A stretch of DNA of 64,000 bases, taken from NCBI RefSeq assembly GCF_009914755.1, contig NC_060925.1; one strand, given 5' to 3'. Positions 26,062 to 30,476 of the stretch are shown piece after piece. The notes beneath the pieces are model-generated. The model was not told the DNA's origin. It did no database searches and worked only from the letters and a program-made list of their open reading frames with translations. The position numbers and the translations under genes are program-made. Each line of letters starts with the position of its first letter. Position 1 is the first letter of the stretch. Source of the DNA: the human T2T-CHM13v2.0 reference genome, Homo sapiens.

Positions 26062-26388
<327 letters not shown>

Positions 26389-27815: not shown

Positions 27816-28069
27816 CTACAACCCAATTTCTCGGCTGTCCTCTCCAACATGTTACACCACCAATATCATGCACACTTTGTCCTAAGCCTCAGTTTCGGAT
27901 CTCTTGCTCTTTTCCGTGAGCCGAGTTGCATGCCAGCAGCCTAGTGCCACTCTATCAACTGCTGCTGCTGCGGTGCCAAGTTTACGTGGGGGAAATGGAT
28001 TCTGAAGTTTTCAGCAGTTTCTGCAGCTCCCACCAACTCCGGGGTCGTCCTCCCTGCCCCCTCACTCAC

Positions 28070-28425
28070 CCCAGCCACAGAAAGTCAAGCGTATCGTTAG
28101 GGTTGCCCTCTTTAACCCTTCTCTTTTTGGAGTGGCGTTCGCGCCTCTCCTCTTTCTCAGACTCTAGCTGGTCCAAGCACCGGAGCTTTCTGGGAGAGGG
28201 CGATGGAGAAGGGGACAGACAGCGGCCGGCCCGGGGGGTGTCCGAACAGGCAGGTTGGTGGGTTAAGGTCTTAATCTTGACTCGAGATCTCTCCCCGGAG
28301 TTCACAGAGTAGGCGACGAAGCCGAAGCAGCTGGAGCGCGACCCGGAGGAGTCTGACTTCTCGTTGTCTTCATAATTTTCATTCGTTGCTTTCTTCGTGG
28401 ACTTGCGGCTGGGGGAGGATCCCCG
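28070..28425 (-). other. GLUL: GLUL alternative 5' leader cassette exon (356 nt)
   Basis: Consensus donor GG|gtgagt at 28069. The acceptor aag|cgggga at 28426 is weak (no good pyrimidine tract) and is assigned from my recollection of the long-leader GLUL transcript. Confidence 0.65.
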
Positions 28426-29251
28426 CTTCCCGCCCCCGAGGGAGTTATAATTATCCACTTTGAGAGCAGCCCCTTCCCACTGAAATGTCCCTAAAGTGGG
28501 CGCCCTGCCCCTCGGGCCCCCGTCCGAATCTCAGGGCCTCACGGAGGTGGCCATACCCTGCCGCCGAGGGGTTGGGGGGTCCGGGGGAGGGTGGGGGCGC
28601 AGGCCGTAGGGACTGCGCGCTGCTGCTGCCTCCGCCCGGACCGGCTTCTCCACTGACTGCGCCGAGGCCCGGGCTCTCCATTGTTCGGTCACATTGGAAG
28701 GCCCCCGGGACCCCGAGGCGGGAGCCGGCCGCCCAAACAACGCTCACCGTTACACGCCGCAATCGAGGCGTCTCAACCATCGCCAGAACCAGGACGATTG
28801 CTCCGAAGGCCCCACCACGAGGAAGGCAGCCAGGCGCCCGCGCCAACCAAGCGCCTTGTTTGCGCTCCACAGGGGACCGCACCGCCACTCCATCCACAGC
28901 GCAAACAAACCACTGCGAGCCCCAGGGCGCAGGCCGGCCCAACGGCCTCCAGGGGCGGCGCTTCGGCCGCAAGTAGTGAAAAGAAGATCAAAACAACTCA
29001 CCCCGCCCTTCCCAGAGCCTGGCCAAGGGCGCGCCCCACCAGCGCCAGCCCCGACGGGTCCAAGCCACCAGCGGCGGAAGCACGCGGGAGGAGCACTCAT
29101 GCCGGATCTCAGGCATGGGCCGGAGAGGCCGCAGCGTAGGGCTGGGACTGGAGGGGCAGGCAGCCGAAAAAAGAGGCTGGGCGGCGCGCCTCGCGGGGTA
29201 GCAGGGGCGGCGCGCCTCGCTTGCGTGACACCGGGCCGTCCGGGGGCTTAC

Positions 29252-29363
29252 CTGGTCGCCGAGCAGGCGGGCGGGTAAAGCTAGGCCGCGAGAGCGAGGT
29301 TAGGAGAGGAGAGGAGGCCGCAGTACTGCTCACACGCTCCGCTCTTCTCCCACTCTCGACTCT
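29252..29363 (-). other. GLUL: GLUL non-coding exon 1 (5' UTR); TSS approximate
   Basis: Strong donor CCAG|gtaagc at 29251. The start lies ~30 nt downstream of a GATAAA TATA-like box, and the sequence matches the GLUL mRNA leader as I recall it. Confidence 0.85.
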
Positions 29364-29600
29364 GCAGAGCCGCCAGCAGCCCCGCACCCTTTATCCGCGG
29401 CCCGGGGCCGCCCCCGGTGCCCTGATTGGCTCCCAGCGGCCAGGAGCCCGGGCCGATCAGCTGATGCGGTCCCGGGCCCCGCGGCCATTGGGCGAGGAGC
29501 CCGGCGGGCGCCGCTGGGGTGGGGGCAAGCGAACTGGGAAAGAAAGAAAGAAAGAGAAAGGGGCGTGGGGGAGGGGCAGGGCGGCGTGGGGGAAGGGAGC
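29364..29600 (-). promoter_or_regulatory. GLUL: GLUL core promoter
   Basis: GATAAA at 29390-29395; CCAAT boxes (plus-strand attgg at ~29425 and ~29487); GC boxes such as ggggcgg at ~29408-29414 and G-rich Sp/KLF-like runs at 29560-29600. Confidence 0.8.
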
Positions 29601-30476
29601 GGAGCCGGGAGGGCTGAGGGCAGAGGGGCGAGTTGCCGCCAGGCCGGGAAGCCTCGGCTCGCCGCCCACCCGCCAGCTCGCCAGGTGCCGCCCCACGGCC
29701 CCCAACCCGGGGTCCCGAGGCTCCCAGCAAAGCCCGCCCTGGACCTCTGCCCTGCCGCCTTCACGGGGAATAGTTTTACGAGGAGAGCTCCCTGGGGAAA
29801 TGCGGAACCAGGGAAACCGAATTTAGCCTTTTGTTGCGAGGGAGCCTCCGAGCCCCGCTTCCTGCGGGCAGGGGTTAGCTTGAGAGGGAGCGCGGGGCGC
29901 GGGACCCGAGGGAACTTTGGGCGGGCCTGGGCTAGGGCGGGTGCCGCGCGGGCCTGGGGACAGGCCGGGGTTCCCAAGGCCTGGAAGAGCCGCCCGCTCC
30001 GGCTCTCTTGGGTCTGGGGAAATAAACAGAACTCTGCCATTTCACATTTGAAATCAACGTGCTGTTTCTCTAATTTTACAGAGAGGATTCTGGAGGGCGG
30101 TAGAAACTAAGTCTGGAGACCTGTCTCATACTGCTGGCCAGACCCTAGGCAGGTCTTTCAGGGCCCAAGTTTCCTCATCTGCAAAATAAAGTGGTCATCG
30201 AAAATGACCTGTGGAGCCGCCCACTAGATTTGAAATTCTGTGTGCAAACTGCCCCCGGAGCAGCTGAAAGGAAATCGAGGTGTTCACTTGCCCCCTTTGA
30301 AGTCCAGGGATTGTCAAGAAATTCCTTTAACGAATTCTCCCTGATTTTGCTTTATCAAGTGCGGCTTCTTGTTAATCTGGAAAATGGGAATACATACCTC
30401 TCCTCTCAGCTTGCCGTGATGGTTGGGAAAATGTGTATGTGAACACAATATTGAAATGTACCTAGAGACACAACAT

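What the first reader, a model, noticed from the sequence alone, without database searches (positions are those of the whole stretch)
28070..28425. GLUL leader cassette exon is stop-free and in frame with glutamine synthetase, and encodes an NLS-like motif
Seen: all 356 nt are open in one frame (RGSSPSRKSTKK...LSPSPSPSPRKLR...ERRERHSKKRRVKEG...DFLWL). Splicing GG|gtgagt to 26323 gives GGA ACA CCT TCC ACC ATG, in frame with Met1. The peptide has a basic cluster (KKRRVK) and SP repeats with a CDK-type SPRK. There is no in-frame AUG inside the exon; near-cognate starts exist (CTG at 29264-29266 in exon 1, ACG codons in the exon). Recalled and to be verified: an intron-1 exon was reported to extend canine GS N-terminally and to reduce translation of human GS. 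Inference: a latent N-extended, possibly nuclear GS proteoform that would also displace the N-terminal degron.
Basis: partly seen in the sequence, partly recalled or inferred. Interest (0 to 1): 0.72.

Follow-up and report, generated by a model that had tools for sequence, protein, structure and literature searches.

The report
Conserved coding-like GLUL leader exon
An optional exon in the leader of the human glutamine synthetase gene keeps the enzyme's reading frame open in human and in many other mammals, so it probably encodes a little-known N-terminal extension of the enzyme, although human production of that longer protein is unproven.

Summary
Exon 28070-28425 (minus strand) is 118 sense codons without a stop, and it joins exon 2 in frame with the GS start codon. 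It has no in-frame ATG, and its two ATGs open an out-of-frame 26-codon uORF. In human DNA alone this is only mildly unusual: the frame stays open in 350 of 20000 shuffles.

The comparative evidence is new. Protein searches gave 40 non-human mammalian ORFs with the same frame open. About 44 in-frame indel events lie outside the SP repeat. Five proteins are spliced to full GS. Just upstream of the exon, frames shift between species.

Frame conservation starts near a GTG (28456-28458) with A at -3 and G at +4. This GTG lies 33 nt upstream of the RefSeq acceptor. The peptide is predicted disordered. It carries a conserved FGFVAYS block, a CDK-type SP site and a KKRR cluster.

Best reading: this is an ancient alternative coding exon giving an N-extended GS of about 57 kDa. 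The RefSeq splice form is a uORF-bearing leader. The canine long GS was already published. Human protein, start codon and nuclear targeting are untested.

The parts
28070..28425 (-). RefSeq alternative leader exon of GLUL: 118 open codons plus 2 bases, in the GS frame
   Evidence: hub annotation gives the exon bounds
28426..28458 (-). 11 further codons of the same open frame upstream of the RefSeq acceptor, conserved in other mammals. They start at GTG 28456-28458 (A at -3, G at +4), the candidate GUG start
28459..28481 (-). Possible alternative acceptor (tttcag, AG at 28480-28481) that would start the exon at 28479, on a codon boundary and 54 nt upstream of the RefSeq start. Inferred only
   Evidence: conserved FQW/KW residues at this point
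28531..28533 (-). First in-frame stop (TGA) upstream of the open frame in unspliced DNA. The stop-to-stop ORF is 154 codons
28068..28069 (-). Donor GT (GG|gtgagt). In unspliced DNA the frame ends here at TGA, which explains why many database ORFs end in LWLG
28302..28382 (-). Out-of-frame uORF (26 codons from ATG 28380-28382, 23 from ATG 28371-28373, stop 28302-28304)
28291..28329 (-). Most conserved block of the peptide (CFGFVAYSVNSGE). The FGFVAY-type motif is present in 38 of 40 non-human rows
28168..28215 (-). SP repeat with a CDK-type S-P-x-K/R site (SPRK at 28186-28197). A site of this type is present in 38 of 40 rows
28111..28131 (-). Basic cluster SKKRRVK (NLS-like by pattern). Four consecutive K/R occur in the last 40 residues in 35 of 40 rows
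26308..26323 (-). First 13 nt of exon 2 plus the GS ATG. Read in frame they give the five linker codons between the extension and Met1
29252..29363 (-). Exon 1. The last in-frame stop is TAA 29300-29302, and the in-frame CTG 29264-29266 has a poor context (C at -3, C at +4)
28748..28914 (-). Second alternative leader exon. ATG 28778-28780 (G at -3, G at +4) would be in frame with the cassette and GS if both exons are included (507-codon ORF). It lies inside a 48-codon uORF that starts at ATG 28891-28893

Best explanation
The exon is the human copy of an old (placental-wide) alternative 5' exon of GLUL that evolves as coding sequence. When it is spliced to exon 2, its frame runs straight into GS. 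It adds about 134 residues: a disordered, basic, Ser/Pro-rich extension with a conserved FGFVAYS block, a proline-directed S-P-x-K/R site and a KKRR cluster. The predicted product is about 57 kDa, against 42 kDa for GS.

Frame conservation begins at a GTG (28456-28458) that sits in a strong initiation context. I infer that this is a GUG start used by transcripts whose exon reaches at least 33 nt further 5' than the RefSeq exon. Such transcripts could use an upstream acceptor or begin inside the CpG island.

In the RefSeq splice form the GTG is spliced out, so the exon acts as a long leader. Its two out-of-frame AUGs open a 26-codon uORF that should lower GS translation.

Shown here: the open frame, the in-frame junction, the uORF, frame conservation with in-frame indels, and spliced GS-fused ORFs in other mammals. 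Inferred: GUG initiation, that human cells make the long protein, and any nuclear role.
For: - Frame and junction.
- Homologues: 11 hits among longer proteins; 25 hits of similar length; 8 related clusters out of 10 hits in an exhaustive scan of 1.84 billion representatives; 7 hits. Together these give 40 distinct non-human sequences.
- Fusion to GS: five are fused to complete GS at the junction predicted from the human splice sites. These are P0002 (507 aa), P0004 (508 aa), the Lemmus and Scotinomys models and a Myotis brandtii model of 413 aa.
- Named species span rodents, a bat and a sloth.
- In-frame indels: searches show the region from the GTG codon to the donor takes 20 different lengths (102-152 codons; 117-152 without frame-broken P0043). 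One search gives about 64 in-frame indel events by parsimony on 39 rows, 44 of them outside the SP repeat.
- Internal control: in 7 rodent-like rows the median pairwise identity is 0.79 in the exon but 0.47-0.53 in the 90 codons upstream, where the rows switch frames.
- Neutral simulation: with substitutions alone, only 8.7-11.5% of runs stay stop-free at the observed 60-65% identity.
- Start context: in all 23 rows that read through the codon it is V, preceded by K in 23 of 23 (A at -3). The next residue is D, A, E or G in 40 of 40 (G at +4).
- Motif conservation.
- Literature: the titles and a review passage on the canine splice-variant long GS and the human leader variant.
Against: - No nucleotide sequences of other mammals were available, so there is no dN/dS, PhyloCSF or codon-position test. 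All comparative evidence is from ORFs that a database kept because they were open (ascertainment bias).
- Two of 40 rows (P0017, P0043) look frame-broken in the last third.
- The extension evolves much faster than GS. In the nearest relative it is 109 of 118 identical, against 373 of 373 for GS.
- There is no in-frame AUG in the RefSeq-type human transcript, and the candidate GTG lies outside the RefSeq exon.
- GLUL does not occur in the 13 supplementary files searched of a genome-wide Ribo-seq plus PhyloCSF screen for non-AUG extensions. Two files were not searched.
- The peptide has no predicted fold (mean pLDDT 59.8, pTM 0.15), no Pfam family and no relative with a solved structure.
- The first-residue M of 17 database ORFs cannot be taken as ATG.
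- In human DNA alone, the chance of an open frame is 1.75%.
Confidence: 0.55

Rival explanations
1. The exon is a purely non-coding leader exon in human (and perhaps in all species). It only lengthens the 5' leader and brings in a uORF that lowers GS translation. The open frame is a by-product of GC-rich sequence conserved for splicing, RNA or enhancer functions.
For: No in-frame AUG, and the out-of-frame uORF is present. The title of Shin et al. 2003 says the extra leader decreases translation. The frame is open in 1.75% of shuffles by chance. The CpG island reaches to about 28400. GLUL is absent from the non-AUG extension lists searched. The peptide is predicted disordered. From memory, GS intron 1 holds enhancers; no paper on this was seen here (searches found none).
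Against: The same frame is open in 38 of 40 non-human ORFs despite 35-60% amino-acid divergence and about 44 in-frame indel events outside the repeat. The sequence immediately upstream shifts frame between related species. Charge-preserving K/R and D/E exchanges are seen in the conserved blocks. The canine long form is a splice variant with altered enzyme properties (review passage).
Confidence: 0.25
2. Human N-extended GS is made, but from an AUG. Transcripts that include both leader exons (28748-28914 and 28070-28425) place ATG 28778-28780 in frame with the cassette and GS, giving a 507-codon ORF.
For:: the four-exon splice product is open from that ATG to GS, and the ATG context has G at -3 and G at +4. 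Coordinates were checked.
Against: Whether the two exons ever occur together was not testable here; the hub table only lists them as exons of other transcripts. The ATG lies inside a 48-codon uORF that starts at a strong-context ATG (28891-28893), so it would be reached only by leaky scanning. No database protein shows this junction. The 11 codons from this exon are not conserved as protein in rodents (rows).
Confidence: 0.1
3. The conserved ORF makes a stand-alone protein of about 130 residues from unspliced or otherwise spliced transcripts, not a GS extension.
For: In unspliced DNA the frame ends at the donor (TGA in G|GTGAGT), and most database ORFs end there. NCBI models a separate 'uncharacterized protein LOC119512080' in the sloth, which joins this ORF to non-GS sequence.
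Against: ORFs that end at the donor are what any ORF caller gives from genomic or pre-mRNA contigs. Five proteins are spliced in frame to GS. The exon length stays compatible with the GS frame through all the indels, which a stand-alone protein would not need.
Confidence: 0.07

Closest known systems
Canine long glutamine synthetase (Shin & Park, J Biol Chem 2004; only the title and one review passage were seen)
   Same: An extra exon spliced ahead of exon 2 extends GS at the N-terminus. [quoted passage not shown]
   Different: The paper itself is not held, so I could not check whether the dog exon is this one, where its start codon lies or how long the extension is. My memory of about 40 residues is unverified. 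It would match the 40-residue extension from an internal ATG in the Myotis brandtii model. The RefSeq human exon has no in-frame ATG.
Human GLUL splice variant with an extra transcript leader region (Shin, Park & Park, Biochem J 2003; title only)
   Same: A leader-extending splice variant of human GS that lowers translation. The uORF found here gives an obvious mechanism.
   Different: The paper is not held. That it concerns exon 28070-28425 rather than 28748-28914 is assumed, not checked. The title does not mention coding conservation.
Conserved non-AUG-initiated N-terminal extensions, such as the PTEN 5'-leader proteoforms (PMC4892431, listing and abstract only) and the PhyloSET genes of PMC9789052 (passages and methods read)
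   Same: An open, conserved frame upstream of the annotated AUG, a candidate near-cognate start in good context, and an extension that may change localisation.
   Different: Here the extension sits on an alternative exon, and the candidate GUG lies outside the annotated exon. GLUL is not in the supplementary lists searched. No Ribo-seq or mass-spectrometry support was seen.
NCBI predicted glutamine synthetase of Myotis brandtii, 413 aa (P0044)
   Same: The same exon is read in the same frame and spliced to GS. It includes the KKRR cluster and the LWLG end.
   Different: It starts at an ATG inside the exon that human lacks, so it covers only the last 35 codons of the exon.

Membership tests
Splice-generated N-terminally extended GS (canine long GS type) | An exon from intron 1 is spliced between exon 1 and exon 2 | tested here: met
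   The hub annotation lists 28070-28425 as an exon of another GLUL transcript. AG and GT splice sites are at its ends.
Splice-generated N-terminally extended GS (canine long GS type) | The exon is stop-free and in phase with the GS start codon | tested here: met
   The same junction is seen in five non-human GS-fused proteins.
Splice-generated N-terminally extended GS (canine long GS type) | An in-frame AUG upstream with no intervening stop | tested here: not met
   there is none in exon 1 + cassette + exon 2. One exists only in a hypothetical transcript with both leader exons.
Splice-generated N-terminally extended GS (canine long GS type) | A larger GS protein is detected | not testable with these tools
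   It needs western blot or mass spectrometry. A review reports a larger 'GS-like protein' (about 540,000 versus about 440,000 for the native enzyme) in human brain; its identity is not stated in the passage seen.
Conserved non-AUG-initiated N-terminal extension | The frame upstream of the annotated AUG is open back to a near-cognate codon | tested here: met
   the frame is open from GTG 28456-28458 (and in the RefSeq form from CTG 29264-29266) to the GS ATG.
Conserved non-AUG-initiated N-terminal extension | The extension evolves as coding sequence across mammals | tested here: inconclusive
   The protein-level evidence is strong: 38 of 40 frames intact, about 44 in-frame indels outside the repeat, and frame shifts only upstream. 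There was no nucleotide-level test, and the database is biased toward open ORFs.
Conserved non-AUG-initiated N-terminal extension | A near-cognate start in a strong, conserved Kozak context, present in the mRNA | tested here: inconclusive
   The context A-3/G+4 is inferred for 23 of 23 and 40 of 40 rows. The GTG lies 33 nt outside the RefSeq exon. Two transcript-like ORFs from other species (P0002, P0004) begin exactly there.
Conserved non-AUG-initiated N-terminal extension | Ribosome footprints or peptides from the extension | not testable with these tools
   No such data are held. GLUL is absent from the 13 supplementary files of PMC9789052 that were searched.
uORF-bearing inhibitory leader | Upstream AUG(s) out of frame, with the uORF ending before the main AUG | tested here: met
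   ATGs at 28380-28382 and 28371-28373, stop at 28302-28304, about 245 nt of mRNA before the GS AUG.
uORF-bearing inhibitory leader | Lower translation of the main ORF | not testable with these tools
   Only the title of Shin et al. 2003 was seen.
Classical monopartite NLS | K-K/R-x-K/R core | tested here: met
   Human has KKRR at 28111-28131. The pattern is in the last 40 residues of 35 of 40 non-human rows. The consensus is recalled, and this is a pattern match only.
Classical monopartite NLS | Drives nuclear import | not testable with these tools
   It needs a reporter fusion.

The most novel reading that the evidence does not exclude
Placental mammals, human included, make a second GS proteoform of about 57 kDa. 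It would start at a conserved GUG on a 5'-extended form of this exon. Its disordered N-terminal domain (FGFVAYS block, proline-directed phosphosites, KKRR cluster) would send part of the enzyme to the nucleus or to cell-cycle partners. This proteoform would be the unexplained larger 'GS-like protein' purified from human brain.
Probability: 0.15. Interest if true: 0.85.

Novelty: new member of a known kind. Interest (0 to 1): 0.6.

Why it matters
GS is a central enzyme of nitrogen and glutamate metabolism and a standard astrocyte and pericentral hepatocyte marker. It is treated as a single 373-residue protein in human and mouse.

A conserved extension of about 134 residues with its own motifs would mean a second proteoform. 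That proteoform could differ in localisation, regulation or partners, and its level would be set by alternative splicing and start-codon choice. It would also give a concrete candidate for the larger GS-like protein reported in human brain. It would show that the dog long form is the visible tip of a mammal-wide feature rather than a species oddity.

If the coding reading is wrong, the exon remains an ordinary uORF-bearing leader exon.

Tried and rejected
1. ATG lost in human. I first read the M at the head of 17 database ORFs as an ATG that human had changed to GTG, and I counted 7 M/V changes on a tree. I reject this as evidence. M occurs only as the first residue of ORFs from the lgn/ena sources or the unnamed representative library. 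All 23 rows that read through the codon have V, including four NCBI models and human. A second column shows the same pattern (first-residue M in P0032 and P0034-36 against V in sister P0012). The ORF caller therefore probably writes M for GTG or TTG starts. Whether any species has ATG there is unknown.

2. Primary papers. The two papers (PMC1223576 and the 2004 JBC paper) are not held. Only titles and one review passage were seen.

3. Literature searches with no relevant result:
- GLUL + N-terminal extension + non-AUG gave 0 papers.
- GLUL + N-terminally extended / near-cognate / proteoform gave no paper with GLUL among the 12 listed.
- The search for the GS-like protein gave only unrelated GSLP acronyms among the 12 of 163 papers listed.
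- The search on the first intron and enhancers gave nothing relevant.
- GLUL + nuclear localization + isoform gave 17 papers; none of the 12 titles and abstract openings listed concerned a GS isoform.
- GLUL + uORF gave 6 papers; the one opened does not link GLUL to a uORF.
No description of a human or mammal-wide N-extended GLUL was found by these searches. This library lacks most subscription journals.

4. No hit reached the gathering score in Rfam. No tandem repeat lies inside the exon. The extension has no Pfam family and no relative with a solved structure.

5. The human genome holds only this one copy of 28070-28540. No processed pseudogene preserves the splice form.

6. AlphaFold2 with 22 aligned sequences gave no fold.

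7. One regular expression (for the W..LG end) was malformed, and its count is disregarded.

Full report
**1. The observation**

On the minus strand, window 28070-28425 translates into 118 residues without a stop. The other two sense frames have 3 and 7 stops. The exon is bounded by AG (28426-28427) and GT (28068-28069). Its last two bases join exon 2 (26323) so that five codons lead into the GS ATG at 26308-26310.

There is no in-frame ATG. The exon's two ATGs (28380-28382, 28371-28373) are in the +1 frame and open a 26/23-codon uORF that ends at 28302-28304. With exon 1 in front, the frame is closed by TAA 29300-29302. Neither it nor any of the other nine in-frame near-cognate codons has both a purine at -3 and G at +4.

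In human DNA alone the open frame is only mildly unusual. It is open in 350 of 20000 dinucleotide shuffles, and in 12 of 682 GC-matched stretches of the window.

**2.

In unspliced DNA the same frame continues 35 codons upstream of the RefSeq acceptor, to TGA 28531-28533. Eleven codons upstream of the acceptor lies GTG 28456-28458, with A at -3 and G at +4. A possible acceptor (tttcag, exon start 28479) lies 54 nt upstream of the RefSeq one, on a codon boundary.

If both alternative leader exons were included, ATG 28778-28780 would be in frame with the cassette and GS, giving 507 codons. That ATG sits inside a 48-codon uORF with a strong start. Whether such a transcript exists could not be tested.

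**3. Relatives**

The 118-residue peptide (P0001) was searched three ways.
- Among longer proteins: 11 hits.
- Among proteins of similar length: 25 hits.
- Exhaustively against 1.84 billion representatives: 10 hits, of which 8 are related and 2 are weak repeat proteins that I set aside.

A profile search among longer proteins gave 7 hits and added one new protein. Together there are 40 distinct non-human sequences, with 40-92% identity to human over the region.

Five carry complete GS behind the extension, at the junction predicted from the human splice sites.
- P0002 (507 aa): GS part 373 of 373 identical to human, extension 92% identical.
- P0004 (508 aa): GS part 359 of 373 identical.
- Genome models named Lemmus lemmus (574 aa) and Scotinomys teguina (584 aa).
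- The NCBI prediction for Myotis brandtii (413 aa), which starts at an ATG inside the exon.

Other named records are Sigmodon hispidus and a separate 'uncharacterized protein' of the sloth Choloepus didactylus. The frame is therefore open in rodents, a bat, a xenarthran and a close primate relative. Most other rows come from unnamed contigs. They end at the donor, as any ORF read from genomic or pre-mRNA sequence would.

**4. Is the frame kept by selection?**

From the GTG codon to the donor the rows have 20 different lengths, 102-152 codons, or 117-152 without the frame-broken P0043. Simple indel coding on a quick tree of 39 rows gives about 64 in-frame events, 44 of them outside the SP repeat. 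P0017 and P0043 were left out because their last third looks frame-broken. The count depends on the alignment.

An internal control comes from seven rodent-like rows that also cover at least 90 codons upstream. Their median pairwise identity is 0.79 in the exon but 0.47-0.53 upstream. There the rows visibly switch between the three frames seen in the human sequence. In the murid-like rows the frame switch lies only 5-7 codons upstream of the GTG codon.

Random substitutions applied to the human sequence down to 60-65% identity leave it stop-free in only 8.7-11.5% of 3000 runs per target level. That is before any indel is counted.

Against this, three limits apply. I had no nucleotide sequences from other mammals. 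The database holds only ORFs that stayed open. A genome-wide PhyloCSF and Ribo-seq screen does not list GLUL in the 13 supplementary files I could search, with 2 files not searched. I rate coding-type constraint across mammals at about 0.75.

**5. The start codon**

In all 23 rows that read through the codon aligned with human GTG it is V, preceded by K in 23 of 23, so A sits at -3. The following residue is D, A, E or G in 40 of 40, so G sits at +4. In 17 rows the ORF begins there with M.

I first took this as an ATG lost in human. But M appears only as a first residue, and never in the NCBI models. A second column behaves the same way. The ORF caller probably writes M for GTG or TTG starts, so these rows say nothing about ATG.

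What remains is a conserved GTG in a strong context, at the point where frame conservation begins. That is the usual picture of a non-AUG start. P0002 and P0004 show that spliced RNAs in two other species include this codon. The human RefSeq exon does not include it.

**6. The peptide**

The peptide has no Pfam family and no relative among solved structures. AlphaFold2 with 22 aligned sequences gives mean pLDDT 59.8 and pTM 0.15, with only a six-residue helix at the end. It is best read as an intrinsically disordered region.

Of the human 118 residues, 20 are Ser, 24 are Lys or Arg and 16 are Asp or Glu. Three motifs are conserved among the 40 non-human rows.
- The FGFVAY-type block: 38 of 40.
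- An S/T-P-x-K/R site: 38 of 40.
- Four consecutive basic residues near the end: 35 of 40.

The basic cluster fits the classical monopartite NLS pattern, a consensus I recall rather than tested. Import itself was not tested. A protein started at the GTG would have 507 residues, 57.0 kDa and pI 8.5, against 42.1 kDa and pI 6.4 for GS.

The extension would make the GS N-terminus internal rather than remove it.

**7. Literature seen**

Shin & Park 2004 and Shin et al. 2003 are not held. I saw their titles in reference lists. One review passage says that canine brain has two GS forms with different properties and that the larger is a splice variant. The same review reports two forms from human brain, about 440,000 and about 540,000. 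The link I draw to a 57-kDa subunit is speculation.

None of my ten searches found a description of a human or mammal-wide N-extended GLUL.

**8. Verdict**

The exon is most likely the human copy of an ancient alternative coding exon of GLUL. The annotated human splice form is a uORF-bearing leader. A long GS in human would need a 5'-extended exon with GUG initiation, or both leader exons with leaky scanning to an AUG.

The kind of thing is known: the dog long GS and non-AUG extensions in other genes. What I did not find in print is the mammal-wide conservation of the whole extension of about 130 codons and of its candidate GUG start.

Noticed in passing
window 28748-28914 (-): The second alternative leader exon has two ATGs, both with G at -3 and G at +4. 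In exon 1 + this exon + exon 2, the first ATG opens a 48-codon uORF in the GS frame that stops before the GS ATG. The second opens a 25-codon ORF that overlaps the GS start out of frame. This exon alone should therefore strongly depress GS translation.
   Followed up: partly
window 28451-28987 (-): A 178-codon stop-to-stop frame in the GC-rich intron contains an ATG (the 'MES...' start). It ends at TAA 28451-28453, three bases after the candidate GTG start. In several rodent rows the corresponding ATG is in frame with the extension, which is why automated rodent models start there.
   Followed up: partly
P0005 (Choloepus didactylus LOC119512080): NCBI models the conserved ORF in the sloth as a separate protein-coding locus whose 3' part is not GS. 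The sloth row also has a 22-residue expansion of the SP repeat.
   Followed up: no
window 27920-28312 (+): The antisense strand has a 130-codon stop-to-stop frame across most of the exon. No evidence that it means anything was sought.
   Followed up: no
window 29292-29362 (+): A sub-threshold Rfam match to mir-483 lies antisense to GLUL exon 1 (25.7 bits against a gathering score of 60, E 0.056). It is most likely chance in GC-rich sequence.
   Followed up: no
window 28400-30000: The promoter CpG island (GC 0.67-0.75) runs from upstream of exon 1 down to just 5' of the cassette exon. Transcription starts inside intron 1, upstream of the GTG, are therefore conceivable.
   Followed up: no
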